Virus record (IMG/VR): IMGVR_UViG_3300045988_180880
Span: 288,001 to 352,000 of that record
DNA length: 64,000 nucleotides
Source of the DNA: a virus
Reading direction: 5' to 3' (one strand)
Shown: positions 4,444 through 43,319 of the stretch, piece after piece
How positions within the stretch are numbered: the first letter of the stretch is position 1
How the letters are laid out: each line of letters begins with the position of its first letter
Notes under the pieces: model-generated
The model's database searches: none
Seen by the model: the letters and a program-made list of their open reading frames with translations, nothing else
What the model was told of the DNA's origin: nothing
Position numbers and translations under genes: made by a program

Positions 4444-4488
4444 CAATAATTTTAAAGATAAGAAAAATTATAAAAAAAACAATTAATT

Positions 4489-5273: not shown

Positions 5274-5286
5274 TTAATAATAAGTT

Positions 5287-5368
5287 TGTGTGATACTCAA
5301 GTGGTTAACGAGGATAGACTGTAAATCTATTAGCTTTGCTTTCGGGAGTTCGAATCTCTCTCACACAA
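5287..5368 (+). tRNA. tRNA-Tyr: tRNA-Tyr (anticodon GTA), class II
   Basis: Acceptor TGTGTGA/TCACACA, anticodon stem ATAGA/TCTAT with loop CTGTAAA, long variable arm, T arm GGGAG-TTCGAAT-CTCTC. Confidence 0.8.
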
Positions 5369-5388
5369 CATAAAATAAAATTATAAAT

Positions 5389-6956: not shown

Positions 6957-7167
6957 AATGTAGTATAAAAAGTTGCCCTCCATATTAAGAAATTATATGG
7001 TAATAAAGTAAGTAAATTCGGTGAAAGGATAATCCCAATACCGAGTCAAGGATCTTAGATAAATCTAAGTAATCTTTGATGTAACGAATAAAGACTTACT
7101 AACTTATATAATTATATAAGTTAAATTTATATTCTAAACTATAATAGAGTATTATAGAAATAGATTG
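6957..7167 (+). ncRNA. Group I intron, family B (B2)
   Basis: P3 GTAAGT/ACTTAC, P AAATTCGGTGAAA, Q AATACCGAG, P8 AACTTATATA/TATATAAGTT. 3' tail TTCTAAACTATAATAG..GATTG|, as in B1. Joins ..SGPRG|AGGLGTDLIF. Confidence 0.7.
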
Positions 7168-9219: not shown

Positions 9220-9291
9220 TGAACTATAGTATAATTGGCAATACACCAGATTTTGGTTCTGGGATTTCCTGTTCGAGTCAGGATAGTTCAA
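9220..9291 (+). tRNA. tRNA-Gln: tRNA-Gln (anticodon TTG)
   Basis: Acceptor TGAACTA/TAGTTCA, D stem GTAT/ATAC, anticodon stem CCAGA/TCTGG with loop TTTTGGT, T arm TCCTG-TTCGAGT-CAGGA. Confidence 0.8.
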
Positions 9292-9322
9292 CGAAAGAAA
9301 ATAATAATAACTAATAAAAACT

Positions 9323-9640
9323 ATGTTGAGAGTTAAAAGATTTAGTAAAGTTACTGATAAAGTTAAAGAAATAGGAAAATCTATTGAACATACAGTAACT
9401 CATCCTAAAGAAACTGGTAAGAAGGTGGTGGAGTATGTAAAGAAACACCCAGATGAAGCTATAATTCTTGGGACATCTGATATTGTTCCTGGAGTTGTTG
9501 CTGCCAAACTTGCAAAAGCTGGAAAAACAAAACAAGCAGCTATCGCAGGAACTATTGCAGCACTTCCTATTGGTGGTGCATATGTATCAGGGAAAATAGC
9601 TATTCGAAAATGGAATGAAAAAAGAAAGAAGAATAAATAG
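9323..9640 (+). CDS. Leader-tagged (MLRVKRFS) small protein with Gly/Ala-rich hydrophobic segment
   Basis: ORF track; sequence GVVAAKLAKAGKTKQAAIAGTIAALPIGGAYVSG. Confidence 0.55.
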   Translation: MLRVKRFSKVTDKVKEIGKSIEHTVTHPKETGKKVVEYVKKHPDEAIILGTSDIVPGVVAAKLAKAGKTKQAAIAGTIAALPIGGAYVSGKIAIRKWNEKRKKNK

Positions 9641-9648
9641 AATAGATT

Positions 9649-9721
9649 CGAGATGTAGTTCAGTAGATAGAACGCTTGGTTTGGGACCAAGAAGTCGCAC
9701 GTTTGAGCCGTGTCATCTCGA
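9649..9721 (+). tRNA. tRNA-Pro: tRNA-Pro (anticodon TGG)
   Basis: Acceptor CGAGATG/CATCTCG, D stem GTTC/GAAC, anticodon stem CTTGG/CCAAG with loop TTTGGGA, T arm GCACG-TTTGAGC-CGTGT. Confidence 0.8.
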
Positions 9722-9878
9722 CCTAGATAAATAGACGATGAGATATCGTGGAATTACTAACATGAATTATAAACCTTTAGGAAGAGTAAAAGTCGCGAGT
9801 TACTCTTCCACTACTAAGGATGACATGTTAATAATACAAGGATAGTTTGATATCTCGGGAAGCTATAAAATTTAATTC

Positions 9879-11569: not shown

Positions 11570-11760
11570 TATTGCTAATAATGAGAGGCATAGATAAAAA
11601 GTTTATGAAAATGTTTTTAATTGCTGGAAAAAATAATAAATTAAATCAGCAAAAATAGATAATAAAATCTATTTCTCAACGACTAGAGTAAACACTAAGA
11701 ATACCGATTAATTCTTAGATAATATAGTCTATTATTGATTTTAAAATCAATTAGGTTAAG
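11570..11760 (+). ncRNA. Group I intron, family A (A3)
   Basis: P2 CATAGA/TTTATG, P AATTGCTGGAAA, Q AAATCAGCA, P6 ATAGAT/ATCTAT, R TTCTCAACGACTA, S AATATAGTCT. 3' end at G11760; alternative G11770. Confidence 0.7.
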
Positions 11761-11949: not shown

Positions 11950-12132
11950 TAATTAACTGAGACTTAAGAAATTCATAAGTTCTTAAGAAAATTTCATAAA
12001 ATGCTGGAAAGGTTAGAATCAAATCAGCATCATCTAGCAGATAGCGAGATGTTCAACGACTAAAGATGGAACCTAGATTTTTAGGATAATATAGTCTAAA
12101 TTTAATAGCAAGCAATATATTAAAAAAAATTG
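11950..12132 (+). ncRNA. Group I intron, family A (A4)
   Basis: P1 TCUU/GAGA, P2 CTTAAGAA/TTCTTAAG, P AAATGCTGGAAA, Q AATCAGCA, R GTTCAACGACTA, S AATATAGTCT. G12132 is the only in-phase G; tail ends AATTG|. Confidence 0.8.
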
Positions 12133-12756: not shown

Positions 12757-12930
12757 AAATAATATGCGTTTTTTATATGAATTGCTGGAAATATCTAAAT
12801 GAGATAAATCAGCATCAAATCATACTTAGATAAATCTAAAGAAGTGATTTGTTCAACGACTATGTATATAAACTGTCAAAATAGACAGAAGATATAGTCT
12901 AAATTATAAATAAATTTTATAAATACATTG
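12757..12930 (+). ncRNA. Group I intron, family A (A5)
   Basis: P AATTGCTGGAAA, Q AAATCAGCA, R GTTCAACGACTA, S GATATAGTCT (12891-12900). Tail ends CATTG|, P10 TAT/ATA. Phase 0 on both sides. Confidence 0.8.
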
Positions 12931-25909: not shown

Positions 25910-26098
25910 ATTGAAATTGAATTTTTATGAACTGCTGGGATTTATATAAAAAAAATAAAAATCAGCAAAAAGGATTACTAATATAAATCCTTTCTCAACG
26001 ACTAAGTATAAAAGATAAATAAATTTTATTATTTTTCAAGATATAGTCTAGCGAAATTACCAAATAATTTTCTAAAACGAATTATACTAAGCAAAGTG
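25910..26098 (+). ncRNA. Group I intron, family A (A6)
   Basis: P3 TTTTAT/ATAAAA, P AACTGCTGGGA, Q AAATCAGCA, P6 AGGATT/AATCCT (same as A2), R TCTCAACGACTA, S GATATAGTCT. G26098 is the only phase-compatible terminal G. Boundaries +/-20 nt. Confidence 0.7.
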
Positions 26099-26331: not shown

Positions 26332-26510
26332 AAATAATTGCGCCTTGGATTTTTATATTACCAAGAAAAATAAGAGAATTGCTGGAAGATAATAAAATAA
26401 ATCAGCAAAGAAAGTTTACAAAAATTTTCTCTCAACGACTATGTACTTATTAAAATGATATAGTCTGATCTTAAATATTAATCTTATATTTAAGTTTAAC
26501 AATAATGCAG
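26332..26510 (+). ncRNA. Group I intron, family A (A7)
   Basis: P2 CTTGG/CCAAG, P AATTGCTGGAAG, Q AAATCAGCA, R TCTCAACGACTA, S GATATAGTCT, P9 CTTAAATA/TATTTAAG. Terminal G26510, P10 ATT/AAT. Joins IQR|NKMVVNV. Confidence 0.8.
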
Positions 26511-26569
26511 AATAAAATGGTGGTTAACGTTTTGGTTAGATACCAGAGAGCTTTGAAATATGTCATCGT
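26511..26569 (+). CDS. Tail sheath protein, exon 3 (59-nt mini-exon)
   Basis: NKMVVNVLVRYQRALKYVI, typical of a sheath C-terminal strand. Donor ATCGT| (UCGU pairs with GCGA), phase 2. Confidence 0.6.
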
Positions 26570-26737
26570 AAAGTATATGCGATTATTATACCAATTGCTG
26601 GAACTTAATAAATCCAAAGAATCAGCAAAAATAGATATAATTCTATTTCTCAACGACTAGATGTATAATTAAAATTTCATGAAGATTTTAAAAGATATAG
26701 TCTGAACATGAGTAGATAATACTTAGCAAACATATTG
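26570..26737 (+). ncRNA. Group I intron, family A (A8)
   Basis: P3 TATAC/GTATA, P AATTGCTGGAAC, Q GAATCAGCA, P6 ATAGAT/ATCTAT-like, R TCTCAACGACTA, S GATATAGTCT. Tail ends TATTG|, P10 TAT/ATA. Confidence 0.8.
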
Positions 26738-26876: not shown

Positions 26877-28175
26877 ATGCAAAAATTTACAAAAGATGAA
26901 ATAATATATAATATTATTTCAAAATTAACTAAAGATATTGAATTCCTAGGATTAGAAAACTATTCAAAAGATATATCTACAAAAAAATTAAAAATTATTT
27001 TAAGATGTAAATTACATAATATAAGTAAAATTATAAAATATTCTAGTTTTATATTAAATGGATGGCATTGTCCTGAATGTTCAAAAATAAAAAGAACACT
27101 TCCAGAAAATATAGCAATAGAAAGAATACAAAAATCCATATTAAAGAAAAATAATGAAGGGAGTAATATATCTTTTTTAGGATTTGTAAATTTTTGGAAA
27201 GGCTCATCAACAAAATTGATTTTAAAATGTAATATTCATAATATTATTTGGAAAACAACGACCTATAATGGATTTATTTCGAATAATTTAATTGGTTGTC
27301 CTGAATGTTCAAAAGAAAGAAAAAAAAGAAAATTAACTAATTTAGAAGCAGAAAATAATATAATCGAATTTCATAAATCATCTTCTACAAATGAATCGTC
27401 AATATTTTGTAATATTCATAATAGCTACACAGGTTATAATTCTCCAGTTGAATTAGTTTGTTATAAACATGGAAAATTTTCATGTTATTATAGTTATTTA
27501 ATGACTGATAAAAGTAGAAATATTATACTATGTCCTAAATGTAGAGAATTATTTGAACGTGAACAGGAAAAGAAAAGATATCATAACTTAATAATAGATA
27601 GAGTAAATCATTTAAATAAAAAATATAATATATCTTTAGAATTTTTAGGATTTAAAGAAGAATTTAATTATCAAAATACATATCTAATACTAAAATGTAA
27701 TATTCATAATCATATTTGGGATACTACTAGACTAGGTATATTTTTAAAACATGAAGGAAAATACTGTATATATTGTTCAAAAACTAGTAGTATTTCGTTT
27801 ATGGAAAATTCTTTATACTCTATTTTAAATAGTTATTATTTAAACATAATTCGTCAATATAAATTAATAATAAATAATAGAATATTTTATTTAGATTTTT
27901 ACATACCAAAATTAAATGTAATAATAGAGTATGATGGAAAACAACATTATGAATTTACTTCTTTCTTTCAACCCACATATCAAAATTTCGTAAATCAAGT
28001 TAACCGAGATAGATGTTTAGAACAATATTGCAAAGAAAATAATATAAAACTTCTTCGAATTTCTTATAAAGACAATAATAGAATCCCTGAAATCATAAAG
28101 ATATTTTTCGAAGAAGGAAAAGATATAACAACAAAAGTAGAACCTAAATTATTACCAGTATTATATCATGGATAA
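26877..28175 (+). CDS. Free-standing homing-endonuclease-like protein (Zn-ribbon repeats plus Vsr/DUF559-like domain), paralog 2
   Basis: Repeated CPECSK/CPKC ribbons. C-terminus LDFYIPKLNVIIEYDGKQHYEF..VNRDRCLEQYCKENNIKLLRISY. Starts 61 nt after the sheath gene. Confidence 0.6.
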   Translation: MQKFTKDEIIYNIISKLTKDIEFLGLENYSKDISTKKLKIILRCKLHNISKIIKYSSFILNGWHCPECSKIKRTLPENIAIERIQKSILKKNNEGSNISFLGFVNFWKGSSTKLILKCNIHNIIWKTTTYNGFISNNLIGCPECSKERKKRKLTNLEAENNIIEFHKSSSTNESSIFCNIHNSYTGYNSPVELVCYKHGKFSCYYSYLMTDKSRNIILCPKCRELFEREQEKKRYHNLIIDRVNHLNKKYNISLEFLGFKEEFNYQNTYLILKCNIHNHIWDTTRLGIFLKHEGKYCIYCSKTSSISFMENSLYSILNSYYLNIIRQYKLIINNRIFYLDFYIPKLNVIIEYDGKQHYEFTSFFQPTYQNFVNQVNRDRCLEQYCKENNIKLLRISYKDNNRIPEIIKIFFEEGKDITTKVEPKLLPVLYHG

Positions 28176-31397: not shown

Positions 31398-34300
31398 ATG
31401 AGAGAAAGAAATATAGAAAATGAGATTCTGAAGCAAAATAAAATTCCTGGATGTGATCAACTTACTAGACCTGAGGAAGTAAAAGCTCTTAGTAAATATC
31501 TTAAAAGTATTAGAACAACTCAAGAAAATCATACTTCCCTAGAGAAAGATAATCTAGAACTCCCTGGAAGAACAACAGGGAGGATTCCAGAAATTAATTC
31601 TCTCGAAGATCATGTAGAAGGATTAGATGGAATTAGGGGTGTAAAGAATTTATATAAAGAAAGTAGTAGAATATCTTTGAGTGATGATCAAGGAGAAAAG
31701 ATACCTACAGGATTATATACAGAAAAGTCACGTGAAAATTTAGAGGATAAAAGAAAAATATTCTTAGAGAATAAACGTGAGGATCTTAAAAATACTTTAG
31801 AGGATCCTAAACTTGAAAAACACAGAGAAAATCTTGATACAGATTCTTCGGGGATAGATGAACTTAACAAAGAAAAAGTAAATCTAGAAGGAGTTAGGGA
31901 TGTAAGAAATCTTTATATAAATACAAAAGAAAAACTTAAGGTTCCAGAAGAAGATCTAAAACTAGGAAAAGAAAAGGAATCTCTTATTGATAATCATAAT
32001 CCAGAACTAGACCTAACGAGAATAGATCTTGAAGGGTTTAGAGATTTATCTTATAAAGAACAACTAGAGGTAGATTCTAAAAATGAATTAGATACTACTA
32101 GGATATCATTAAAGAAGACCACGGAAAATCCTGAATTATCTAATCACAAGGAAAATCTTAAGAAAACTCCCGAAGAATTAGATAAATTAGGGAGTTATAA
32201 AGAGTCTTTGGGGAATGTAGAAGATAAACTAGAGGAGCTTAATGGTACTAAGGTTAAGCTTAGAAATCCAGTAAGTGATATTGAACTCTCTAAAACCAAA
32301 GTATCTTTAGAGAGAACTGCAGAAGATAAGGAGTTAGAAACTTATAGGGAAAATCTTAAGAAAACTCCCGAAGAATTAGATAAATTAGAGAATCACAAAG
32401 AATCTCTTAGGAGTGGGGAAGAATTAGAAAACCTACCTAAAGATAAAATAGCTCTTGAAGGTATTGCGGAAACATTAGAAGAACTAGGAAATACTAGAAT
32501 AGACTTAGATGGTACTGAAGAATCTGAAATATTTACTTTAGAGGATTATAGAGAAAACCTAAGTGTAGAAGATAATAATTCTCTTGAAGATAAAAGGATA
32601 GACCTAGAAGATACAAAGGAGTCTGAACCTAAAGCGCTAGAGGATGAAAGAATTGATCTAAATGGCACTAAAGAATCTGAGATATCTACTTTAGAGGATT
32701 ATAGAGAAAACTTAAGTGTAGAAGATAATAATTCTCTTGAAGATACTAGAATAGACCTAACAGGAACAAAAGAAGCTGAAGTATCCGAACTTGAAGATTA
32801 TCTTGATGAATTAGATAATACAAAAGATTATGAAGCTTCTGAGTTAGAGGATACTAGGATAGACTTAACTGGGACTAAAGAAGCAGAACCTGAATCTTTA
32901 GAAGACAAGAGAATAGACTTAGAGGATACTGAAGAATATGAATCGAGTTCTTTAGAGGATGAAAGGATAAATCTAGAAAGTACAGAGGAATTCGAACCTG
33001 GAAGTCTTGAAGATTTTATAGATAAACTTGAAGACTCTAGAGATACCGAACTTGAAGATGAAATACTTGAACTTCCTGAAACTTCTGGAGATGAGTATGA
33101 AGGTTATAATCCATTAGGTCCAGATGAATTAGATAGTCTTGGTGGGAATATCAATAATTTCTATGATTCTCTTCTTGAAGTTCCTGAAACAGGTGATGCT
33201 CCTAGACAATCTGGGGATTATACTCCTCTTGGTCCAGAAGAATTAGATAGTCTTGGTGGAGATCTTGGAAATTTTTACGATTCTATTCTTGAAGTTCCAG
33301 AAGATACTGAACATATTATTGAAGAGCTAAATGATGATATTAAAGAAAAAATTCCTGAAGCACAAGTAGATGAAAGTCAAAAAGATTGGAAATATTTAAA
33401 GGAATTAACCGAAGATGATCTCTATAAAGAAACTATTCGTTTACTTAGTGAGAAAGAAGCTGGAGAGTGGGGTAAGAAAATGCAATCTTTAGTAAGTGCA
33501 TATCTTAGTTCAGAAGCCATATCTCCTGATCGAGCAGAAGAATATATAAATAAACTTGGAAAGGAGATCTTAATTCAACAAGAGTCTTCGAGAGTGGAAG
33601 GTCCTTCTATGAAATTACCAAAATTTGGATTAGAATCTCTTAACTTAAGTAATTATCTTAGGTGGACAGCTGAGAAAACTATTGGATGGACTGGAGTACA
33701 TGGATCAGCGAGACAACTTCTTCTTAATGAAACAATAGCTGCACTTGTAGTAGCTAGAGATGAGTTAGAAAAATTATCTAAATCAAATCGATATAGATTA
33801 CCTGGAAATGATAGAGGTTTATTAGGTGATTTAGTATCTGGAGGAGTTTCTGGTGCTCTTGATAACTTGGGAGATAAACTAGGTGATGCAGTTAATACAA
33901 TAGTTGGGAGCAAATCTGTAGATATCTCTAATCCTATAAATAGACCAGAAAAAAATGAGCATAGAGATGGATGGGAAGAAGGAAATATACGACCATCAGG
34001 AAGTAATCCATTTCTACCAACACAAAGTCATTCAGAGTTTTCTCAAAAAGAAGGTAATCTATTATCCAAGATAACTAAAAGTAGTGGAAGTAGTGGGGAT
34101 AGTAATAAATTCTGGAAAAAAGTAGGAAGTGCAGCAAAAGATATGCTTCTAGGCTCTAGCAGTGGAGAAACAACTTATAAATTTAAATCTAATTATGTAT
34201 CTGGAAAAGGAATAAATATCACATTAGAGGAATTATGTGGAATTTCTGGCACAGATGATGCAAATACTGTAGAAGGATTGTATAATGTATTAAAATCTAG

Positions 34301-35090
34301 CCCATTTATTACTACTCCAGATAAATTTACCTCAACTGGATATTCAGATTATAGAACTCAAACATTAGATACTAATGCATACTGGGAAGTTGTTTTAGAA
34401 CCCTATGTAGGTCCTGAAAATGGAAATCTTAATTATCTTCCTGGAATTCATGAAATCAATACTAGAAATATAGCTCAACACGGAGTAAATACTGCTTATA
34501 ATAGATGGATTCCTTATGTTAGTTTTGATCTTCAAAAATCTAAATTAACAAATAAAACACTCAATCTATATGATGGTGAAATCAGTTATCCTGTTTCAAT
34601 GGAATTTACTAATGAATTTAGATTAACTATAGCTGACGATCAATATAAGTCTTGGAGACGATATTTTGAAGAATGTGCTAAAGCTGCAATTTATAATAGT
34701 GAAGGACATGATGAATCTTATTATAAAGAAGGCGGTACTGAAGGAGTTTTAGGATTAACTGCAATAGATACTAATAACGTATGTATTGCTATGTATAAAA
34801 ATATATGCTTCAGATGTAGAATATACGTTATGACACCGCAATATAGTACAATTCAAAAATTTGATTTACTTTTAGTAATGAAAGATTTTTCTGAAGAATA
34901 TACAGGAGATATTGGAGATGGTGCAGGAGATCTTACAGTATCATTTAGTATTGTAGGAGAGAATCCAAATGAAGGAGAAATTCCAAAAGTTAAAGTAATA
35001 CAGCATAAAGCTCCTGATAATTCTTCAAAAACGGATTATGGTTCTATAGTAGAAAGTGGAGTAAATTCAGTAATGAAACTAATTAAATAA
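31398..35090 (+). CDS. Large virion protein with Glu/Leu-rich tandem repeats and globular C-terminal domain
   Basis: 1230-aa ORF. The N-terminal ~600 aa is made of degenerate LED/ENL repeats. Confidence 0.55.
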   Translation: MRERNIENEILKQNKIPGCDQLTRPEEVKALSKYLKSIRTTQENHTSLEKDNLELPGRTTGRIPEINSLEDHVEGLDGIRGVKNLYKESSRISLSDDQGEKIPTGLYTEKSRENLEDKRKIFLENKREDLKNTLEDPKLEKHRENLDTDSSGIDELNKEKVNLEGVRDVRNLYINTKEKLKVPEEDLKLGKEKESLIDNHNPELDLTRIDLEGFRDLSYKEQLEVDSKNELDTTRISLKKTTENPELSNHKENLKKTPEELDKLGSYKESLGNVEDKLEELNGTKVKLRNPVSDIELSKTKVSLERTAEDKELETYRENLKKTPEELDKLENHKESLRSGEELENLPKDKIALEGIAETLEELGNTRIDLDGTEESEIFTLEDYRENLSVEDNNSLEDKRIDLEDTKESEPKALEDERIDLNGTKESEISTLEDYRENLSVEDNNSLEDTRIDLTGTKEAEVSELEDYLDELDNTKDYEASELEDTRIDLTGTKEAEPESLEDKRIDLEDTEEYESSSLEDERINLESTEEFEPGSLEDFIDKLEDSRDTELEDEILELPETSGDEYEGYNPLGPDELDSLGGNINNFYDSLLEVPETGDAPRQSGDYTPLGPEELDSLGGDLGNFYDSILEVPEDTEHIIEELNDDIKEKIPEAQVDESQKDWKYLKELTEDDLYKETIRLLSEKEAGEWGKKMQSLVSAYLSSEAISPDRAEEYINKLGKEILIQQESSRVEGPSMKLPKFGLESLNLSNYLRWTAEKTIGWTGVHGSARQLLLNETIAALVVARDELEKLSKSNRYRLPGNDRGLLGDLVSGGVSGALDNLGDKLGDAVNTIVGSKSVDISNPINRPEKNEHRDGWEEGNIRPSGSNPFLPTQSHSEFSQKEGNLLSKITKSSGSSGDSNKFWKKVGSAAKDMLLGSSSGETTYKFKSNYVSGKGINITLEELCGISGTDDANTVEGLYNVLKSSPFITTPDKFTSTGYSDYRTQTLDTNAYWEVVLEPYVGPENGNLNYLPGIHEINTRNIAQHGVNTAYNRWIPYVSFDLQKSKLTNKTLNLYDGEISYPVSMEFTNEFRLTIADDQYKSWRRYFEECAKAAIYNSEGHDESYYKEGGTEGVLGLTAIDTNNVCIAMYKNICFRCRIYVMTPQYSTIQKFDLLLVMKDFSEEYTGDIGDGAGDLTVSFSIVGENPNEGEIPKVKVIQHKAPDNSSKTDYGSIVESGVNSVMKLIK
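31560..33310 (+). repeat. Degenerate coding tandem repeats (LEDxRIDLxGTKExE and similar)
   Basis: Duplicated blocks: ENLKKTPEELDKL (2 copies), TLEDYRENLSVEDNNSLED (2 copies), (Y)xPLGP(D/E)ELDSLGG..NFYDS(L/I)LEVPE (2 copies). Confidence 0.7.
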
Positions 35091-35099
35091 AATAAGATT

Positions 35100-37454
35100 A
35101 TGTATTTAAGATTAGGAACAACTAATATAAAGTACTCCACTGAACAAGATGATTTTACAGTATTTTCTGAAGTTGTAGATTCTAAGATGTCATATGAGAA
35201 ACCAGTACTTGTGAGAACTCCTGATGAACTTGACATCTGGTTTGGATCAGATTTTCCAGGGAAAGATTATTACGATGAACTTTTAGAATCTGGAGTTACT
35301 TTATTTTTATATAGACCAATTAAGGTTGAACAAAATACTAATGCTCCTGACTATATTGATCTAAAAGAATATTCTATAGATCAAAAATTATACTATAACT
35401 TAACAGAACTTCCAGAAGTCGGAGAAGATAAAGTTTTGTATAAAGTAGTAACAGGAGAAGGCGAATATAAAGAAGGAAATTTGTGGTATACTCTTTATAT
35501 ATATTATCTAGGAGAATATATGAAAATCCTAGAATTACCACAAAATCTTGACACTAATAATACGAGTTCTCTAGAAAATAGAGATGTATTAAATATAAAT
35601 TATCCAGGTTTTATTGGACCTGAATATTGTTATCCGAAATATATAGAGGAAGGAGATGTTGATTATACTGAAAAAATTGATGAAGAAGTATTATTATCTC
35701 ATCTTCCTGATCTGCTAAGAGTATCAAAAGGGTATGAAACTTTAGCTTATTCCTTAGTATATAACCCTGAGATAGATTTTTACCCGGTAGACGAGGGATT
35801 AACTTCTAAATATATAATCCTGAAAAAACTTAAAAATGACTCTTATGAAAATATAATGATTTGGTTTAAAGAGGAAATTAATAGTATCCCTAATATTCCA
35901 AGTCAATATTATGATGAAGCAATTGAGGTTGAAATTAAAGCAAAAGAAAGTAATAAGGAAATTTTCAAGAGGTTAGTAGAAGTTATAATTCCAAGTCAAT
36001 TAGGTTATACTATCGAAGGAAATATCTCGGAGGGTTACAAAATATACACATCATATTCTATTCAAGTTACCTATTTTACTAATATTACTGGTCTATTATT
36101 CGAACCAGATTTTAACACTACACACAATATACTATCAAAAATCTCGAGTGGAAGTACTAGAATGAGATTTATATCGAAAACAACTGGTACTGAAGGTGGA
36201 GATTCCGAATATTTAGATAGTGATATTAGTGTAAATATTGAGAAACTGAAGGGAGATGATAAATATAGAGTAACAATCGAGAGGTATAAATATCAAGAAA
36301 TTTATGAAGGTGGTTTATTTACTATTGGACAGGAAAGGCTTGATACTATAATTACTTCAGAGTCTAAGTTAGTTAGATGTATTCTTTCAACATCTTACGT
36401 AAATCGAGAGACAGATGAAGAGGTAGAGTATAAAAAAGGTTCTAAAGAATCTGAATTACCCTCTGGAACATGGTATCTTAAACGAGCCTGGAAAGAAACG
36501 GCCGAAGATATAAATGGGGAATATTGGAAAGCGGCAGAGGCTATTTTTGGATCTGACAACGCTGGAATTATTGATTATTTCTTAGTCCCTGATATCTATA
36601 AATACTCGGCCGGAATGAAGACAGGCTCGGAGACTAGTTATTATCCAGAATATGAGAGATTTTTAGGATATGCGAAGAGTTTAGGTTTTCAAGTATTATT
36701 CCAAAATTCTGATAATGGATGGACCTACGTAGAAACTCAAGAACTTCCATCGGCCGAAGATATAACCTCAGGAACAATTTATATAGTATCACAACCTACT
36801 GGAGGAGTAAAATTCTATAAAGTAGAGAATGGAAACTTAATAGAAACAACTGACCCTGAGGAAACTAATACGGCCGGAAATAACTACGTCTTTAATTATA
36901 CCTCTGATGCTGATAATCGACTCTTATATTTTTATCGAGGGCAGACAATTTTTGGGCAAGATAGACCTGGATATTACTTACATATTAGAGGGCTCTTACA
37001 AGATATTTACTCAATAACTAGCGATCAAATCTTATATCAAACACCTACAACAGATCCTTACACCTTTGAATCACCAGAAGATAAACTTGAGGAATACAAA
37101 AGTAATTATCTAGTATTCAATAACCAGATATATTACTATAAAAAATATCAAAATGGACAAGACTTCAATACTTCAGGGTGGATGAGATTCTGTATAGGAA
37201 AAGTAGCGAGAGAATTGGAAAAGAATAAATGGAAAATTCTTAGTACTAAATCAGCCGGAGATATAAGAGCTAGAATAGAACAGATCTTAAATAGGATATC
37301 AACTGGGTACTCATATATAGATTCATTAGTTATTACTGGATTTTACCTAGACTTACCAAATAATAGACTAGGACTTGAAGTGGAATCTAGAATGAGTGAC
37401 TTAGTAGATAATGATATGACGATCGATATAACTTTAAATTACGATAAAAAATAA
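35100..37454 (+). CDS. Large tail/baseplate-associated structural protein (function unknown)
   Basis: 784-aa ORF just upstream of the tube gene. Contains four CGGCCG sites within 36499-36876. Confidence 0.5.
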   Translation: MYLRLGTTNIKYSTEQDDFTVFSEVVDSKMSYEKPVLVRTPDELDIWFGSDFPGKDYYDELLESGVTLFLYRPIKVEQNTNAPDYIDLKEYSIDQKLYYNLTELPEVGEDKVLYKVVTGEGEYKEGNLWYTLYIYYLGEYMKILELPQNLDTNNTSSLENRDVLNINYPGFIGPEYCYPKYIEEGDVDYTEKIDEEVLLSHLPDLLRVSKGYETLAYSLVYNPEIDFYPVDEGLTSKYIILKKLKNDSYENIMIWFKEEINSIPNIPSQYYDEAIEVEIKAKESNKEIFKRLVEVIIPSQLGYTIEGNISEGYKIYTSYSIQVTYFTNITGLLFEPDFNTTHNILSKISSGSTRMRFISKTTGTEGGDSEYLDSDISVNIEKLKGDDKYRVTIERYKYQEIYEGGLFTIGQERLDTIITSESKLVRCILSTSYVNRETDEEVEYKKGSKESELPSGTWYLKRAWKETAEDINGEYWKAAEAIFGSDNAGIIDYFLVPDIYKYSAGMKTGSETSYYPEYERFLGYAKSLGFQVLFQNSDNGWTYVETQELPSAEDITSGTIYIVSQPTGGVKFYKVENGNLIETTDPEETNTAGNNYVFNYTSDADNRLLYFYRGQTIFGQDRPGYYLHIRGLLQDIYSITSDQILYQTPTTDPYTFESPEDKLEEYKSNYLVFNNQIYYYKKYQNGQDFNTSGWMRFCIGKVARELEKNKWKILSTKSAGDIRARIEQILNRISTGYSYIDSLVITGFYLDLPNNRLGLEVESRMSDLVDNDMTIDITLNYDKK

Positions 37455-37462
37455 TAAAAACT

Positions 37463-37602
37463 ATGGCAAGCGTAGCAAGTTTAGTCCGCGGAAGTGACGG
37501 ATACATGAAATTTATTGACTATCAAAGTACATATAAAGATAATAATAAAGAATTCCTTCGTGGTGACATGTGGGAACTTCAATTCATTAATGTACCTAAG
37601 AT
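37463..37602 (+). CDS. Tail tube protein (T4 gp19-like), exon 1
   Basis: MASVASLVRGSDGYMKF..FLRGDMWELQFINVPK. Donor CTAAGAT| forms a 7-bp P1 with GTCTTAG (U.G at the site), phase 2. The genomic frame stops 16 codons later. Confidence 0.65.
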
Positions 37603-37763
37603 AAATAATTGTCTTAGTAAAACTTTGTAAACTGCTGGAAGATCAAGTAAAGATAAATCAGCAAAAATAGATAAAAAATCTATTTCTCAACGACTATTAG
37701 CAAAGAAAAGAAATAGCCATAGATTTCTTTTATGATATAGTCTAAACATAGAACAAATGTTTG
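37603..37763 (+). ncRNA. Group I intron, family A (A9)
   Basis: P3 CTTTG/CAAAG, P AACTGCTGGAAG. The 5' half is nearly identical to A1. P6 ATAGAT/ATCTAT, R TTCTCAACGACTA, P8 AAGAAAT/ATTTCTT, S GATATAGTCT. Terminal G37763. Confidence 0.8.
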
Positions 37764-37965
37764 AGTTTATTTCCCTGGTACTGATATTTTCAATGCTAGA
37801 TTAAATGCCGTTCAGGTAGGTATTGATTATAGTGTATCAGGTTTTGAAAAGAGAATGCGTGGTAATTATACTATCATTCAGAAGACAGGTCAAAACACAG
37901 CTGGAACCCTGTCGTTGGCTTTTGTAGATAAGGAAGATCAGGCAATTACTTACTGGTTTGATAAT
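37764..37965 (+). CDS. Tail tube protein, exon 2
   Basis: AT|A junction codon, then VYFPGTDIFNARLNAVQVGIDYSVSGFEKRMRGNYTIIQK..AFVDKEDQAITYWFDN. Donor GATAAT| (pairs with GTTGTC). Confidence 0.6.
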
Positions 37966-38182
37966 TTAAAAGTTGTCCATTAAGAGATTAAAAGTTCCTT
38001 AATGAATCTTTGTGAACTGCTGGAAATTTTAATCGCTCAAGAATGATAAAAACTAAGAGCGGAAAAATAATCAGCAGAAATAGATATGATTCTATTTTTC
38101 AACGACTAAGTACAAAGAAAGAGGATAAGCCATAGTTCCTCTTATGATATAGTCTAGTATGATTTAAAACAAAAACCATAAG
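37966..38182 (+). ncRNA. Group I intron, family A (A10)
   Basis: P2 CATTAAG/CTTAATG, P3 CTTTG/CAAAG, P AACTGCTGGAAA, extended P5, Q TAATCAGCA, R TTTCAACGACTA, S GATATAGTCT. 3' end at G38182 (alternative G38183). Confidence 0.7.
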
Positions 38183-38368
38183 GACTATCGCCAGAAAATT
38201 GCAGATCGTGATACTAAATATTCTTTCAGAAAGGATGACTTAGTATGCGACCTTAGATTAATCTTAACTAACTCAAGCCGTATCAAAGTTCGTACTCTTA
38301 ATTTCTATAACTGTATTCTTCAGGATGCACCGATTGATGAAAATGGGCAGACTGAGGACGGAACCGAT
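38183..38368 (+). CDS. Tail tube protein, exon 3
   Basis: DYRQKIADRDTKYSFRKDDLVCDLRLILTNSSRIKVRTLNFYNCILQDAPIDENGQTEDGTD. Donor CCGAT| (CGAU pairs with GTCG), as in A1. Confidence 0.6.
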
Positions 38369-38559
38369 TAATAGCTTAGTCGCTTAAATAATAAAATTTA
38401 AGAAAATTATACTAAAATGCTGGAAAAATCTTGGTTATACCAAGTATAAATCAGCAAAAACTATTAAAAATAGTTTCTCAACGACTAAATGTATAACTTA
38501 AGAAGTATTAATTCTTAAGATGATATAGTCTATAATATATTAATGTATATTAACAAATG
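38369..38559 (+). ncRNA. Group I intron, family A (A11)
   Basis: P2 CTTAAAT/ATTTAAG, P3 TTATAC/GTATAA, P AAATGCTGGAAA, Q AAATCAGCA, R TTCTCAACGACTA, P8 CTTAAGAA/TTCTTAAG, S GATATAGTCT, P9 TAATATA/TATATTA. Terminal G38559. Confidence 0.8.
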
Positions 38560-38583
38560 CGAGCAGATATCCAAGTCAGCTTT
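38560..38583 (+). CDS. Tail tube protein, exon 4 (24-nt micro-exon)
   Basis: RADIQVSF resembles T4 gp19 ..EIQTFEV. Donor GCTTT| (CUUU pairs with GAAG, directly before P2). Confidence 0.5.
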
Positions 38584-38764
38584 TTCAAATGAAGAAGCAT
38601 AAAGTAATATAAACTTTATGAAAAATTCTATTAAAATGCTGGAATATCAAATAGATAATCAGCAAAAATTAGAAAAGATCTAATTTCTCAACGACTAAAT
38701 ATAGAACTAAGTTTGAAATATAATTTAGATGATATAGTCTATTCATTGATAAAAATAATTAATG
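38584..38764 (+). ncRNA. Group I intron, family A (A12)
   Basis: P2 CATAAAG/CTTTATG, P3 TTCTAT/ATAGAA, P AAATGCTGGAAT, Q TAATCAGCA, R TTCTCAACGACTA. P8 is identical to that of A2. S GATATAGTCT. Terminal G38764 gives a consistent frame. Confidence 0.75.
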
Positions 38765-38785
38765 ACTTTAAAGCAATTTGAACAT
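38765..38785 (+). CDS. Tail tube protein, exon 5 (21-nt micro-exon)
   Basis: TLKQFEH resembles T4 gp19 TLALDYWE. It is bounded by independently predicted sites: G38764 and donor GAACAT| (pairs with GTGTTT). Confidence 0.45.
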
Positions 38786-38953
38786 TTTGGAAAATTTCAT
38801 GGTGTTTTCTACAAGAATTGCTGGAAAATTTGTATCTTTGTATACAAATAATCAGCATCCTAGATATTAACATAAATCTAGGTTCAACGACTATGTATGT
38901 AGACTGAGGAAATTCCTTAGGTGATATAGTCTGTCATGAGGTGAAATTCATTG
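38786..38953 (+). ncRNA. Group I intron, family A (A13)
   Basis: P3 TCTACA/TGTAGA, P AATTGCTGGAAA, Q TAATCAGCA, R GTTCAACGACTA, P8 GAGGAAATTCCTTAG, S GATATAGTCT (38923-38932). The 3' end is uncertain (candidate Gs at 38933-38964). Confidence 0.7.
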
Positions 38954-38965
38954 ATTAACGTATGA
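38954..38965 (+). CDS. Tail tube protein, terminal exon (very short; position uncertain)
   Basis: With a CATTG| acceptor it reads INV*. The alternative acceptor G38960 gives YERTFDNI*. Confidence 0.25.
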   Translation: MNV

Positions 38966-39119
38966 AAGAACTTTTGATAATATTTAAAAAAATAACTTAA
39001 TAAACTAGAAGTATCTAATTTATTATTTCTTATGATTGCAAGGAAGGGTGGATCTGATCAATCTGCCCTTCTTCATAAGAAATATATTAGATATTTCCTT
39101 AAAAAAAATTGCAATCAAT

Positions 39120-39962
39120 ATGAAACTTAGAGCAAAAGATACTGAAAGTTTTATTCAAAAAAGTAAAGATAAATATGGTGAAGATGCTTTAGATTATTCT
39201 GAAGTAAACTATATTGATAAATTAACTCCTGTAAAACTAATATGTAAGAAATGTGGGAATATATTTTATCAATCACCAGCAGAACATTTAAGAGATAGAA
39301 AGAAAATATCTTGTCCTAAATGTGCAGTAATAGATTCCAGAGAAAGAAGGTCTATTAAACAGAAAGAAGTTTGGTTAAGGAAATGTAAAGATAAGTTTGG
39401 AGATAAATTTGATTACTCTAAAGTTAATTACATAAATAATAAATTAGATGTATGGATTTATTGTAATAGTTGTAAAAAATGGTTTAAACAATCTCCACAT
39501 CATCATATTAGAAATATTCATGGATGTCCTTTCTGTGCAATGAAAGAGAAATCTGGATATGAATTTATGGTTGAGAGTTATCTTGAATATTTAGTAAAAA
39601 ATGATAAAACGTTATCATATAATTCAGAATACAGTATTTTAAATAGGATAGCGGGAAGGAATTCTAACAAAATAATGATAGATTTTAAATTAAATATAAA
39701 TAACTTAGAATATTGGATAGAAGTTAATGGTCAGCAACATTACAAATTTATAAATTTCTTTCATAAAACAAAAGAAGATTTCCAAAAACAATTAAAAAGG
39801 GATGAAAATGTTAGAGAATACTGTAAAGAAAATAATATAATTCTCATAGAAATTCCATATACTTACAATACATATGAGAAAATATCTGAAGTTCTAAGAA
39901 GAATTTTAATTGGTGGTGAATCTCCAAATATAATAGTTCAGCCAAAAATAATACAACCATAA
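39120..39962 (+). CDS. Free-standing homing-endonuclease-like protein (Zn-ribbons plus Vsr/DUF559-like domain), paralog 3
   Basis: ATG at 39120 (MKLRAKDTESF..). CKKCGN..CPKCA, CNSCKK..CPFCA. C-terminus MIDFKLNINNLEYWIEVNGQQHY..LKRDENVREYCKENNIILIEIPY. Confidence 0.6.
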   Translation: MKLRAKDTESFIQKSKDKYGEDALDYSEVNYIDKLTPVKLICKKCGNIFYQSPAEHLRDRKKISCPKCAVIDSRERRSIKQKEVWLRKCKDKFGDKFDYSKVNYINNKLDVWIYCNSCKKWFKQSPHHHIRNIHGCPFCAMKEKSGYEFMVESYLEYLVKNDKTLSYNSEYSILNRIAGRNSNKIMIDFKLNINNLEYWIEVNGQQHYKFINFFHKTKEDFQKQLKRDENVREYCKENNIILIEIPYTYNTYEKISEVLRRILIGGESPNIIVQPKIIQP

Positions 39963-42378: not shown

Positions 42379-43177
42379 ATGATAATCAAAAGAAAACTGT
42401 TTAGTAAAAAAAGAGGAGAATAAAAACTTCAATGACACTAGTTCAAAAGCAAAAGGAACTGCTTTATATCTTGGAGGTGCGGTAGCGGGTCAAGGTATCG
42501 CTGCACCTATAATGATGAAACATATGCAAGACGAACCCTCAGAAGAATCTGCAAAAATAGCTGAAAAACTAAAAAGATTAGCTTCTAGACGAGGACATAA
42601 AGTAGATAATATTACATATACTGGAATGGGACCTGCATATCAAAATAATAAAATTTATACAAGTGGAACAAAAGCAGCTGATGTTCTTTCACATGAAATG
42701 GGACATGCTCACTATGATAAAAGAAAAGTAAAATCAGTAAGTGATGCTATTGGTAAAGTTGCTCATAAAGCTTATCTAAAAACTGGTGGAATGTTGAATC
42801 ATACAGTTCTAGCTCCTACAGCAGGAATAATAGCAGGTGTTAGATCAGGTAAAAAAGCAGCAGAAAAAGAAGCAGCCGGAGAAAAAGAATCAAAACTCTC
42901 CAGACATAGTGGATGGGCATCTGGTTTAGCTGTTCAATCTCCAGGGCTAGTATCAGAGGCTATGGCAAGTAAACATGGTCTAGATTTAATGAAAAAAGCT
43001 GGTGCCTCTAAGAAATTAATGAAAGCTAGTCGAAAAAACCTAGGTGTAGCTTTAGGAACTTATGCTGGAGTTGCTGTAACTAATGCAGGAATGTCAGAAT
43101 TAGCTAGAGGAATTGCATATAGAAAGAAAAAGAAAAAATTAGAGAAGGAAAAAGATAAAAAGAAAGATGATAAATAA
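42379..43177 (+). CDS. Leader-tagged (MIIKRKLFS) HExxH metalloprotease-like protein; frame broken at an A7 run (42406-42412)
   Basis: ATG at 42379 gives MIIKRKLFSKKRGE*. A +1 shift in the A7 run joins it to ORF-track 42512..43177 (..EENKNFNDTSSKAKGTALYLGG..VLSHEMGHAHYD..SEAMASKHGLDLMKKAGASKK). Confidence 0.5.
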
Positions 43178-43191
43178 CTAATATCATCTTT
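43163..43191. terminator. Hairpin overlapping the stop of 42379..43177
   Basis: Stem AAAGATGAT/ATCATCTTT (9 bp), between convergent ORFs. Confidence 0.45.
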
Positions 43192-43205
43192 CTTATAAAT
43201 CGTAA

Positions 43206-43280
43206 CTAAAATATCTTTCCAAAATGACGAAAGTATTTAAAAAAGTTACGATAACCAATAAATAATCCTAATCCTTTCAT
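43206..43280 (-). CDS. 24-aa basic/hydrophobic peptide (MKGLGLFIGYRNFFKYFRHFGKIF)
   Basis: Its ATG sits 20 nt from a conserved motif copy, the same spacing as the other minus-strand genes. It is the last 24 codons of track ORF 43206..43460. Confidence 0.35.
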   Translation of the reverse strand: MKGLGLFIGYRNFFKYFRHFGKIF

Positions 43281-43300
43281 AATCTTATATATTTTATATA

Positions 43301-43319
43301 TCACATATATAAGGCTTTT
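43301..43319 (-). promoter_or_regulatory. Conserved motif TCACATATATAAGGCTTTT
   Basis: One of 7 copies. Confidence 0.5.

What the first reader, a model, noticed from the sequence alone, without database searches (positions are those of the whole stretch)
37463..38990. Tail tube gene split by five introns into exons as short as 21-24 nt
About 590 nt of gp19-like coding sequence is spread over ~1.5 kb in six exons of 140, 202, 186, 24, 21 and ~12-27 nt. The micro-exons RADIQVSF and TLKQFEH together reproduce the conserved C-terminal ..IQTFEVTLALDYWE pattern of T4 gp19. Their boundaries come from three independent P1/terminal-G predictions that all agree in phase. With exons this short, the guide sequence of one intron lies only a few nt from the 3' splice site of the previous intron. 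Ordered or cooperative splicing is therefore probably needed to make an abundant structural protein.
Basis: partly seen in the sequence, partly recalled or inferred. Interest (0 to 1): 0.85.

Follow-up and report, generated by a model that had tools for sequence, protein, structure and literature searches.

The report
Five-intron phage tail tube gene
The tail tube gene of a roughly 380-kb human-gut phage is split by five very small self-splicing (group I) introns, leaving coding pieces as short as 24 and probably 12 bases; this is real, but it is a more extreme case of something already known from phage Twort and from the recently described "Jug" gut phages.

Summary
Window 37463-38987 (+) holds a 588-nt tail tube ORF split by five ORF-less group I introns of 161, 220, 191, 190 and 175 nt.

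Removing them gives a 195-aa protein that lines up end to end with more than 380 uninterrupted 195-aa homologues. It also aligns without gaps to an intron-free relative at the DNA level.

- Exon 2 ends at 37962 (199 nt, ..WFD|DYRQK..), not 37965.
- Exon 5 is most likely 12 nt (38774-38785, QFEH), not 21 nt.
- Exon 6 is 38961-38987 (YERTFDNI*).

The introns belong to a family with at least 13 copies in this window. Their helices show strong compensatory variation.

The same locus occurs in independent gut assemblies, one a 380,733-bp contig. This fits the published Jug phages, which are known to be rich in group I introns. Near-identical haplotypes carry 4-7 introns yet encode the same protein, so this is not a pseudogene.

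The closest precedent is Twort orf142, also a tail tube gene. It has three group I introns and exons of 41, 23 and 20 nt. Obligatory ordered splicing is untested; I found only a 3-nt overlap between two competing helices in exon 5.

The parts
35100..37454 (+). Tail sheath gene (784 aa) immediately upstream
   Evidence: AF2 model pLDDT 82.6. Foldseek top hits are T4 gp18 and other sheath proteins, E 1e-7 to 1e-5, probability 1.0. No Pfam or PHROG hit.
37463..37602 (+). Tube gene exon 1 (140 nt, M1..I47, phase 2)
   Evidence: The ORF starts at ATG 37463. The exon end is fixed by blastn against intron-free relatives and by the P1 helix CTAAGAT/GTCTTAG with a terminal U.G pair.
37603..37763 (+). 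Intron 1, group I, 161 nt, no ORF
   Evidence: RF00028 29.3 bits; family model R1 115.9 bits. P3, P6, P8 and P9 hairpins fold as expected. Ends in G; P10 AGTT/AATT.
37764..37962 (+).
   Evidence: blastn: window 37962 and 38183 are adjacent bases in the intron-free L001 and L007.
37963..38182 (+). Intron 2, group I, 220 nt (has P2 and an extended P5)
   Evidence: RF00028 36.1 bits; R1 94.3 bits. P1 GAT|AAT pairs with GTTGTC, with the U.G pair at T37962/G37975. P10 GACT/AGTT forms only with this site.
38183..38368 (+). Exon 3 (186 nt, D114..D175)
   Evidence: tblastn and blastn colinearity.
38369..38559 (+). Intron 3, group I, 191 nt; in-frame TAA right at the 5' splice site
   Evidence: RF00028 29.9 bits; R1 94.8 bits. 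P1 CGAT/GTCG plus 3 bp on the intron side. Stop after 0 nt of intron.
38560..38583 (+). Exon 4 (24 nt, RADIQVSF)
   Evidence: Colinear with L007 ..CGTAGTGATATTAATGTAACTTTC... Identical or differing by one base in haplotypes that have this intron 3; in L077 and L088 the same codons lie in a 30-nt exon.
38584..38773 (+). Intron 4, group I, 190 nt (the alternative 3' end at G38764 is not excluded)
   Evidence: R1 98.5 bits; missed by Rfam. P1 GCTTT|TTC pairs with GAAGAAGC, with a single U.G pair at T38583. The P9 stem TCATTGAT/ATTAATGA contains G38764. P10 ATTTGAA/TTCAAAT, 7 bp, 2 of 2000 shuffles.
38774..38785 (+).
   Evidence: It restores 195 aa and aligns without a gap to P0001 ..TFQFEHY.. and to L007 DNA. 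These 12 nt are invariant across haplotypes, whereas the 9 nt upstream vary, including a 3-nt indel.
38786..38960 (+). Intron 5, group I, 175 nt
   Evidence: RF00028 27.1 bits; R1 87.5 bits. P1 GAACAT/GTGTTT; P10 TATGAAA/TTTCATG, 7 bp in register.
38961..38987 (+). Exon 6 (24 nt plus TAA; YERTFDNI*)
   Evidence: Among the candidate 3' G positions examined (38925-38984), only G38960 gives the homologue C-terminus FEHYERTFDNI.
39008..39097 (+). Long stable hairpin between the tube gene and the endonuclease gene
   Evidence: RNAfold -38.5 kcal/mol, z = -6.15, 0 of 200 shuffles fold as well. Function unknown.
39120..39962 (+). Free-standing HNH/DUF723-type homing endonuclease gene (280 aa)
   Evidence: phrog_559 HNH endonuclease 3.5e-35; Pfam DUF4379 1.7e-7. 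Called with DUF723 in public contigs. No DUF723 gene is called downstream of the tube gene in L001-type relatives.

Best explanation
Window 37463-38987 is the functional tail tube gene of a huge human-gut myovirus, most probably a Jug phage. It lies directly after the sheath gene and is interrupted by five compact, ORF-less group I introns of one proliferating family.

Inferred mechanism (standard group I chemistry, not tested here):
- The pre-mRNA is transcribed as one unit.
- Each ribozyme folds its own P3-P9 core.
- It selects its 5' splice site through a P1 helix with a U.G wobble, and is attacked there by free guanosine.
- It then ligates the exons at its terminal G, helped by a P10 pairing.
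- The product is a 588-nt ORF in six exons of 140, 199, 186, 24, 12 and 27 nt, encoding a 195-aa tube protein.

In-frame stops 0-63 nt into each intron stop any ribosome that reads past an unspliced junction.

The introns are recent, mobile and individually dispensable. Near-identical haplotypes carry 4-7 introns at partly different sites, and more distant relatives carry 0-2.

Within the 12-nt exon, the P10 of intron 4 and the P1 of intron 5 compete for 3 nt. Splicing of one may therefore assist the other, but a strict order is not demonstrated.
For: Group I identity:
- Ordered core motifs occur five times.
- RF00028 hits with E 4.5e-7 to 2e-4.
- Family model R1 finds all five, plus eight more in the window, at 72-116 bits.
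- On 46 family members, 84% of cells are paired against 38-49% when the partners are slid. 28 of 30 pairs show compensatory changes. The covariation score is 0.567 against 0.165 in shuffles, reached by 0 of 500.
- Each intron has P3, P5, P6, P8 and P9 helices of different sequence.
- Every 5' exon ends in a U paired with G in P1, and every intron ends in G.

Junctions:
- blastn to intron-free relatives fixes 37602/37764, 37962/38183 and 38368.
- The spliced CDS aligns gaplessly with L007.
- More than 380 homologues, most of them 195 aa.
- P10 statistics.

Functionality:
- L085 (6 introns) encodes a protein 100% identical to the window's. L088 (7 introns) differs by one residue.
- The exons are intact in several independent assemblies.
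- There is no second copy in the window.

Gene identity: tube fold and sheath gene upstream.

Genome context:
- 380,733-bp gut contig and 31% GC.
- PMC12880540 reports Jug phages of 360-402 kb and about 30% GC, with 18.5 group I introns per genome of about 206 nt. Splicing was confirmed by metatranscriptome reads for 37 of 76 predicted introns.
Against: - No RNA or protein data exist for this locus, so splicing is inferred.
- All five introns score below Rfam's gathering threshold (27-36 against 50 bits). One was not reported by Rfam at all.
- The 3' end of intron 4 is ambiguous. The three bases before G38764 (AAU) can pair with the AUU that follows P7, as a P9.0-like contact does in sister introns (my reading of the sequences). 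The 9 nt in question stay in frame in all five haplotypes seen.
- P1 of intron 2 at the preferred site has only 3 exon-side base pairs.
- The covariation alignment was fitted to the model's structure, which biases it towards that structure.
- Tube identity rests on a model of a 90%-identical homologue with pLDDT 72.7 and TM about 0.5-0.6. That fold is shared with tube-like paralogues such as the tube terminator and baseplate tube proteins.
Confidence: 0.88

Rival explanations
1. One reading: the 5' splice site of intron 2 is after AAT37965 (..WFDN|DYRQK..) and intron 4 ends at G38764. Exon 5 is then 21 nt (TLKQFEH) and the protein has 199 aa.
For: - GATAAT/GTTGTC is a 6-bp P1 if the splice site is T37965.
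- The AAU before G38764 can pair with the AUU after P7, like P9.0 in sister introns (my reading of the sequence).
- The 9 nt ACTTTAAAG stay open and in frame in all haplotypes, including a 3-nt insertion in L088.
Against: - Intron-free relatives have no codon between GAT and GAC.
- None of 20 aligned homologues has the extra N or the extra TLK.
- No P10 forms with T37965, whereas GACT/AGTT forms with T37962.
- G38764 is paired inside an 8-bp P9 stem that is kept through one-sided changes in other haplotypes.
- P10 is 4 bp (258 of 2000 shuffles) against 7 bp (2 of 2000) for the 12-nt exon.
Confidence: 0.08
2. The locus is a decayed pseudogene of the tube gene littered with dead intron copies. 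The working tube protein is encoded elsewhere in the roughly 380-kb genome.
For: - Gene callers find only a 55-aa ORF here.
- The rest of the genome was not examined.
- The introns score below Rfam's threshold.
Against: - All six exons join into one intact ORF with the same length and ends as the homologues.
- Haplotypes with 4 to 7 introns at different sites encode the same protein.
- The intron helices keep pairing through compensatory changes.
- The locus holds the usual sheath-tube position.
- There is no other copy in the window.
Confidence: 0.03
3. Splicing of the five introns must follow a fixed order or be cooperative, because the micro-exons are too short to serve two ribozymes at once.
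For: - In the 12-nt exon, the P10 of intron 4 (positions 3-9) and the P1 of intron 5 (positions 7-12) overlap by 3 nt.
- Two folded ribozymes would be tethered by only 12 nt (inference).
- Relatives have exons of 9 and 12 nt.
- Twort orf142, with 23- and 41-nt exons, is reported to show exon skipping (PMC11878797, citing Landthaler and Shub 1999).
Against: - The overlap is partial. A 4-5-bp P1 and a 4-5-bp P10 could coexist.
- Exon 4 (24 nt) shows no overlap.
- P10 is not essential in many group I introns (general knowledge).
- Intron sets differ freely between haplotypes, which argues against co-adapted partner introns.
- There are no kinetic data.
Confidence: 0.3
4. The intervening sequences are not removed at the RNA level. 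The fragments are translated separately, or the gene is expressed by some other recoding.
For: There is no direct RNA evidence for this locus.
Against: - Exons of 12 and 24 nt have no start codons.
- Exon boundaries follow group I rules exactly (U.G wobble, terminal G).
- The sequences have a conserved ribozyme core.
- Introns of this kind are shown to be spliced in Jug phage metatranscriptomes (PMC12880540).
Confidence: 0.01

Closest known systems
Staphylococcus phage Twort orf142 (tail tube protein) with three self-splicing group I introns (Landthaler and Shub 1999, PNAS 96:7005; named as a tail tube gene with exon skipping in PMC11878797)
   Same: - It is a tail tube gene lying directly after the sheath gene.
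- It has several group I introns clustered in the 3' end of the coding sequence, with very short exons between them.
- My reconstruction from AY954970 gives exons of 345, 41, 23 and 20 nt, which make 142 aa.
   Different: - Twort has 3 introns that score 64-101 bits on RF00028, above threshold. Here there are 5 (up to 7 in sister haplotypes) of only 161-220 nt, scoring 27-36 bits.
- Exons go down to 12 nt here and 9 nt in L088.
- The two tube proteins show no detectable sequence similarity (hhalign probability 0.3).
- The family model hits only one Twort intron, weakly (38 bits). These are therefore independent invasions, not orthologous introns.
Group I introns of Jug (jumbo gut) phages (PMC12880540, Sci Adv 2026; preprint PMC12363816)
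   Same: - Same genome size class (380,733-bp contig), GC content, human-gut origin, small mean intron size (about 206 nt) and fragmented essential genes.
- Splicing was verified there by metatranscriptome reads for about half of the predicted introns.
   Different: - The main texts discuss terL, nrdD, DNA polymerase, portal and protease genes. They do not mention the tail tube gene, multi-intron micro-exon genes or intron-site polymorphism. The supplementary tables could not be read.
- That study reports 18.5 introns per genome. This 64-kb window alone has at least 15, so the published counts may be low.
Intron-rich fungal mitochondrial genes (for example cox1) with mini-exons between group I introns (PMC8971849 and PMC12308204 came up in the search and were not read)
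   Same: Many group I introns in one gene, with exons of a few to tens of nucleotides between them.
   Different: These are organellar genes whose introns are often long, carry ORFs and depend on maturases. Here the introns are ORF-less mini-introns in a phage late structural gene.
Unannotated introns in the terL region of Staphylococcus jumbo phage vB_StaM_PB50 (OR770614.1)
   Same: The same intron family: two hits of about 71 bits (E 3e-11) with model R1, and 72% nucleotide identity to intron 3.
   Different: A different host phylum, and a different gene (terminase).

Membership tests
Group I self-splicing intron | Conserved catalytic core helices (P3, P4, P6, P7, P8) in the canonical order | tested here: met
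   RF00028 alignments cover model positions 1-253. Family model R1 scores 87-116 bits. 28 of 30 modelled pairs show compensatory changes and 84% of cells are paired, against 38-49% when slid. The P7 strands GACTA/TAGTC are invariant.
Group I self-splicing intron | 5' splice site after a U that forms a U.G wobble in P1 with an internal guide sequence; intron ends in G | tested here: met
   Met for all five introns. The P1 exon-side helices are 7, 3, 4, 5 and 6 bp.
Group I self-splicing intron | Score at or above Rfam RF00028's gathering threshold (50 bits) | tested here: not met
   27-36 bits for four introns; the fifth is not reported. Twort's introns score 64-101 bits in the same test. I read this as small, AT-rich, divergent members rather than non-members.
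Group I self-splicing intron | Precise excision restores the host reading frame, colinear with intron-free alleles | tested here: met
   DNA; protein.
Group I self-splicing intron | Guanosine-dependent self-splicing of the RNA | not testable with these tools
   Needs in-vitro transcription with GTP labelling, or RNA-seq.
Myovirus tail tube protein (T4 gp19 / Hcp-like fold) | Tube-protein beta-barrel fold | tested here: met
   The model of P0001 (90% identical to the spliced product) has pLDDT 72.7. Foldseek probability is 1.0 to the T4 neck-tail complex, the P1 tube and CIS tubes (E 1e-6), and to BFVD entries named 'tail tube protein' (E 1e-8 to 1e-6).
Myovirus tail tube protein (T4 gp19 / Hcp-like fold) | Sequence match to a curated tube family | tested here: inconclusive
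   phrog_1842 (tail tube) E = 0.0084. No Pfam hit, and no meaningful PDB sequence hit (best E 0.07, to an unrelated nanobody).
Myovirus tail tube protein (T4 gp19 / Hcp-like fold) | Gene lies next to the tail sheath gene | tested here: met
   The upstream 784-aa protein models as a sheath (T4 gp18 and others).
Jug phages (PMC12880540) | 360-402 kb genome, about 30% GC, human or animal gut, many small group I introns | tested here: met
   An identical locus lies on a 380,733-bp gut contig. Window GC is 31%. There are at least 15 introns in 64 kb.
Jug phages (PMC12880540) | Placement within the Jug clade by TerL, MCP or RpoC phylogeny, or by genome identity | not tested
   No Jug reference sequences were at hand. 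The tube protein has no match in the INPHARED phage set.
Twort orf142-type multi-intron tube gene | Orthologous introns or insertion sites | tested here: not met
   No protein similarity. Only one weak covariance-model hit (38 bits) to a Twort intron. The resemblance is one of architecture, not of descent.

The most novel reading that the evidence does not exclude
The last 31 codons or so of this tube gene are a hot spot where ORF-less mini group I introns repeatedly jump into new sites. I count about 10-12 distinct insertion sites in the gene: after codons 47, 113, 165, 168, about 171 (the second type-B intron of L088), 175, 178, 182/183, 187, 189 and 190. Nine or ten of them lie in the last 31 codons. 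Occupancy ranges from 0 to 7 introns per gene among related phages.

This pattern would point to frequent ectopic transposition, for example by reverse splicing or by free-standing endonucleases acting in trans, rather than classical single-site homing. The resulting tandem ribozymes, separated by 9-24-nt exons, might splice interdependently or skip exons. All junctions from intron 2 onwards are phase 0, so skipping would give in-frame tube variants or a splicing-limited timer for tail assembly.
Probability: 0.2. Interest if true: 0.8.

Novelty: new member of a known kind. Interest (0 to 1): 0.55.

Why it matters
- **Annotation.** Public assemblies call only a 55-aa stub here, so the tube protein of a very common gut phage group is missing from protein catalogues. 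Intron counts for these phages are probably too low, because Rfam's threshold finds none of the 15 or more introns in this window.
- **Mechanism.** A 588-nt gene carrying 5-7 ribozymes, with exons of 9-24 nt, is a compact natural test bed. It lets one ask how neighbouring group I introns fold without mispairing their near-identical cores, whether P1 and P10 of adjacent introns compete, and whether exon skipping occurs as reported for Twort.
- **Evolution.** Near-identical haplotypes differing only in intron content give a rare view of intron gain and loss as it happens. The parallel with Twort suggests that tail tube genes may be favoured targets.

Tried and rejected
- **Rfam thresholds.** At gathering threshold, and over the whole window with the E-value threshold, Rfam returns only tRNAs. 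The introns appear only in a short-range, permissive search.
- **RNAalifold on a MAFFT alignment.** It recovered only the invariant P4 and P7 because the variable helices were misaligned. I replaced it with a hand-seeded covariance model. My first structure string wrongly nested the P3/P7 pseudoknot; P7 was then left out.
- **Sequence-based naming of the tube and sheath proteins.** Pfam, PHROGs, PDB sequence search and tblastn against INPHARED gave nothing useful. Structure prediction was needed.
- **Landthaler and Shub 1999.** The paper is not held. I rebuilt Twort's exon map from AY954970 (the first two stretches fetched were the wrong region).
- **Supplementary tables of the Jug phage paper.** These are not held, so I cannot say whether these five introns are among its 2,513.
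- **Pfam on the ORFs flanking the other window introns.** This did not identify their host genes.
- **Promoter and terminator scan.** Uninformative.
- **Haplotype variation in the 9 nt before exon 5.** It never breaks the frame, so it does not settle 12 nt against 21 nt.
- **My first L001 splice coordinates.** They were off by 2 nt. I corrected them by reading: the L001 intron is 6535-6721.
Full report
**1. What is in the sequence**

Between 37463 and 38987 on the + strand, three reading frames hold stretches of one protein. Between these stretches lie AT-rich segments, each carrying the ordered motifs TGCTGGAA, ATCAGCA, CAACGACTA and GATATAGTCT. A permissive Rfam scan of 37300-39200 reports four full-length matches to RF00028 (group I intron). 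They score 27-36 bits, with E from 4.5e-7 to 2e-4, below the 50-bit gathering score. The default scan of the whole window reports none. The fifth copy (38584-38773) is missed by Rfam but has the same motifs.

**2. Exon-intron map**

It hit 384 proteins, nearly all of 195 aa, at up to 88% identity and 100% coverage, on contigs of up to 391 kb. The alignment showed three things:
- The homologues end ..FEHYERTFDNI. Among the candidate 3' G positions examined (38925-38984), only G38960 reproduces this. Exon 6 is therefore 38961-38987.
- They read SF-x-FEH, without the extra TLK.

DNA-level comparison settles the first four junctions. In the intron-free relatives L001 and L007, window positions 37602/37764, 37962/38183 and 38368 are contiguous.

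The revised exons are:
- exon 1: 37463-37602 (140 nt)
- exon 2: 37764-37962 (199 nt)
- exon 3: 38183-38368 (186 nt)
- exon 4: 38560-38583 (24 nt)
- exon 5: 38774-38785 (12 nt)
- exon 6: 38961-38987 (27 nt, including the stop)

These sum to 588 nt, or 195 codons plus a stop. The spliced sequence aligns gaplessly with the 588-nt gene of L007 at 79% identity. The introns are 161, 220, 191, 190 and 175 nt, with 21-31% GC.

**3. The one uncertain junction**

In favour of G38773:
- It gives the same length and residues as the homologues (P0001 reads ..TFQFEHY..).
- G38764 is paired inside an 8-bp P9 stem, TCATTGAT/ATTAATGA. Other haplotypes keep that stem through one-sided changes.
- The 8-nt tail after P9 matches those of sister introns.
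- The 12-nt exon gives a 7-bp P10 (ATTTGAA with intron bases 1-7, TTCAAAT). Only 2 of 2000 shuffles reach this. The alternative gives 4 bp, reached by 258 of 2000.

In favour of G38764:
- The AAU before it can pair with the AUU after P7, as a P9.0-like contact does in sister introns.
- The 9 nt in question stay in frame in all five haplotypes.

I put the 12-nt exon at about 0.75-0.8.

**4. Are they really group I introns?**

- Every 5' exon ends in a U that pairs with G in a P1 helix, and every intron ends in G.
- P10 pairings exist for introns 1, 2, 4 and 5. That of intron 5 is 7 bp in perfect register, which independently confirms G38960. For intron 2, P10 (GACT/AGTT) forms only if the splice site is T37962.
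- The segments between the conserved motifs fold into P2, P5, P6, P8 and P9 hairpins. P3 pairs across the core, with a different sequence in each intron.
- A covariance model seeded from ten window copies finds exactly 13 copies in the window at 72-116 bits, including three that were not in the seed. It finds 46 copies in the window plus eleven related loci.
- On that alignment, 84% of cells pair, against 38-49% when the partners are slid. 28 of 30 pairs show double changes. The covariation score is 0.567 against 0.165 for shuffles, reached by 0 of 500. The caveat is that the alignment was fitted to the model.

**5. What the gene is**

The AF2 model of P0001 (90% identical to the spliced product; pLDDT 72.7) matches tube and Hcp-fold proteins. 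These include chains of the T4 neck-tail complex, the P1 inner tube, contractile-injection-system tubes, and many BFVD entries named tail tube protein. The 784-aa protein encoded just upstream models as a tail sheath, with T4 gp18 and others at E down to 1e-7. Sequence libraries alone were nearly blind to both proteins. The sheath-then-tube order is the usual myovirus arrangement.

**6. Which genome**

The exact sheath protein and the whole five-intron locus recur in several human-gut assemblies at 99.9-100% identity. One is a 380,733-bp scaffold. The window has 31% GC. This fits the Jug phages described in PMC12880540:
- genomes of 360-402 kb and about 30% GC
- Bacteroides or Phocaeicola hosts
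- 2,513 group I introns in 136 genomes, averaging about 206 nt
- 37 of 76 predicted introns confirmed by metatranscriptome reads

Membership by marker phylogeny was not tested. Neither that paper nor its preprint mentions the tube gene. In the public contigs only a 55-aa exon-1 ORF is called.

**7. Population variation**

Among 80 IMG/VR loci encoding relatives:
- 57 have no detectable intron.
- Six have one intron: after codon 165, 189 or 190.
- Seventeen, all about 96-100% identical to the window in their best-matching exon segment, have several introns.

L001 has one intron after codon 178. L005 adds a second, which creates a 14-nt exon. L085-type haplotypes add a sixth intron of a different type after codon 168, giving exons of 140, 199, 165, 21, 24, 12 and 27 nt. 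They encode a protein identical to the window's. L088 has seven introns and exons of 140, 199, 156, 9, 12, 30, 12 and 27 nt, and lacks only one residue. All seven of its introns are sub-threshold RF00028 hits. Different interruptions with the same product argue strongly for a functional, spliced gene and for recent gain and loss of introns.

**8. How it most likely works**

Shown:
- the ribozyme cores
- the P1 and P10 pairings and the terminal G of each intron
- exact restoration of the ORF
- in-frame stops 25, 18, 0, 6 and 63 nt into introns 1 to 5

Inferred: the standard two-step, guanosine-initiated self-splicing of each intron from a single late transcript.

- The guide sequences lie about 30 nt downstream of the previous 3' splice site, not a few nt.
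- What is close is the exon strand of P1.
- In the 12-nt exon, the P10 of intron 4 (positions 3-9) and the P1 of intron 5 (positions 7-12) share 3 nt. Full formation of both at once is therefore impossible, and removing either intron would free the other.
- No such overlap exists in exon 4.

A strict order is possible but not required by anything I could compute.

The introns have no ORFs. A free-standing HNH/DUF723 endonuclease gene follows the tube gene and might mobilise them in trans. That is speculation.

**9. Comparison with what is known**

The closest precedent is Twort orf142. PMC11878797 describes it as a tail tube gene with exon skipping, citing Landthaler and Shub 1999. From AY954970 I reconstructed the following:
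- sheath ORF011, then orf142 starting at 16272
- three RF00028 introns of 64-101 bits
- exons of 345, 41, 23 and 20 nt, making 142 aa

So a cluster of group I introns in the 3' end of a tail tube gene, with exons of about 20 nt, has been known since 1999. The present case differs in degree: 5-7 introns, exons of 12 and 9 nt, and introns of 161-220 nt. It is also independent in origin. The two proteins show no sequence similarity and only one Twort intron gives a weak model hit. The same intron family does occur in the terL region of Staphylococcus jumbo phage PB50. Mini-exons between group I introns are also reported in fungal mitochondrial genes; the search returned such papers, which I did not read.

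**10. Verdict**

It is wrong in two junction details and speculative about ordered splicing. This is a new and extreme member of a known kind. Its value lies in annotation, since a missing major virion protein and undercounted introns both follow from it. It is also a compact natural system for studying closely packed group I introns and intron turnover.

Noticed in passing
window 572-720, 3649-3800, 11609-11756, 11989-12125, 12770-12928, 25920-26065, 26367-26494, 26583-26731 (+): Eight more copies of the same mini group I intron family lie outside the tube gene, all on the + strand (72-112 bits with model R1). With the five tube introns this makes 13 in 64 kb. Rfam's gathering threshold finds none. 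Pfam did not identify the genes they interrupt.
   Followed up: partly
window ~1081-1101 and ~7007-7027 (+): Two matches to the core motif AGTAAGTAAATTYGGTGAAAG of a second intron type ('type B'). In sister haplotypes L085 and L088 this type is inserted in the tube gene after codon 168. The window therefore holds at least 15 group I introns, against a published average of 18.5 per whole Jug genome.
   Followed up: partly
window 26367-26731 (+): Two family introns lie only about 50-60 nt of exon apart, which makes another short internal exon in an unidentified gene. The boundaries were not determined.
   Followed up: no
window 585-691 vs 37633-37742; 3662-3771 vs 38418-38530 and 38637-38739; 3662 vs 25933: Introns share whole helices in a mosaic pattern. 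The intron at 585 has the P3 and P5 of tube intron 1. The intron at 3662 has the P3 of tube intron 3 and nearly the P8 of tube intron 4. The introns at 3662 and 25933 have an identical P6. This suggests recombination or gene conversion between copies.
   Followed up: no
window 39120-39962 (+): A free-standing HNH/DUF723-type homing endonuclease gene (phrog_559, E 3.5e-35) lies directly after the tube gene. L001-type relatives have no such gene called there. A similar DUF723/CapR-domain ORF lies at 26877-28175, next to another intron cluster.
   Followed up: partly
window 39008-39097 (+): A stem-loop of about 36 bp (-38.5 kcal/mol, z = -6.15) lies between the tube stop codon and the endonuclease gene. 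It has no T-run on the + strand. Its role (terminator, processing site or mobile-element boundary) is unknown.
   Followed up: partly
L088 2199-4170 (IMGVR_UViG_3300045988_179979) and L085 2199-3927: Sister haplotypes carry seven and six introns in the same 585-588-nt gene, with internal exons of 9, 12, 30 and 12 nt (L088) or 21, 24 and 12 nt (L085). The protein is identical to the window's, or lacks one residue.
   Followed up: yes
L001 6535-6721; L005 ~5510-5700 and ~5715-5885: In 86%-identical relatives, the tube ORF as called (protein cluster P0002, 185 aa) is a truncated product that reads into an intron inserted after codon 178. L005 has a second intron, which creates a 14-nt exon.
   Followed up: yes
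L097 1501-1631 and 1946-2081 (Staphylococcus phage vB_StaM_PB50, OR770614.1 ~42733-43313): Two unannotated introns of the same family (about 71 bits) lie after a 228-nt fragment annotated 'terminase large subunit' and flank a short ORF annotated 'homing endonuclease', in a cultured jumbo phage of a Gram-positive host.
   Followed up: partly
window 4193-5369 and 9220-9723 (+): Six tRNA genes (Thr-TGT, Asn-GTT, Ser-TGA, Tyr-GTA, Gln-TTG, Pro-TGG) lie in two clusters.
   Followed up: no
window 31398-35090 (+): The 1230-aa ORF just upstream of the sheath gene has a long acidic region of degenerate repeats (..LEDxRIDLxGTKExE..). It has no family match. Its length varies between haplotypes (1230, 1266 and 1332 aa in L011-L014).
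   Followed up: no
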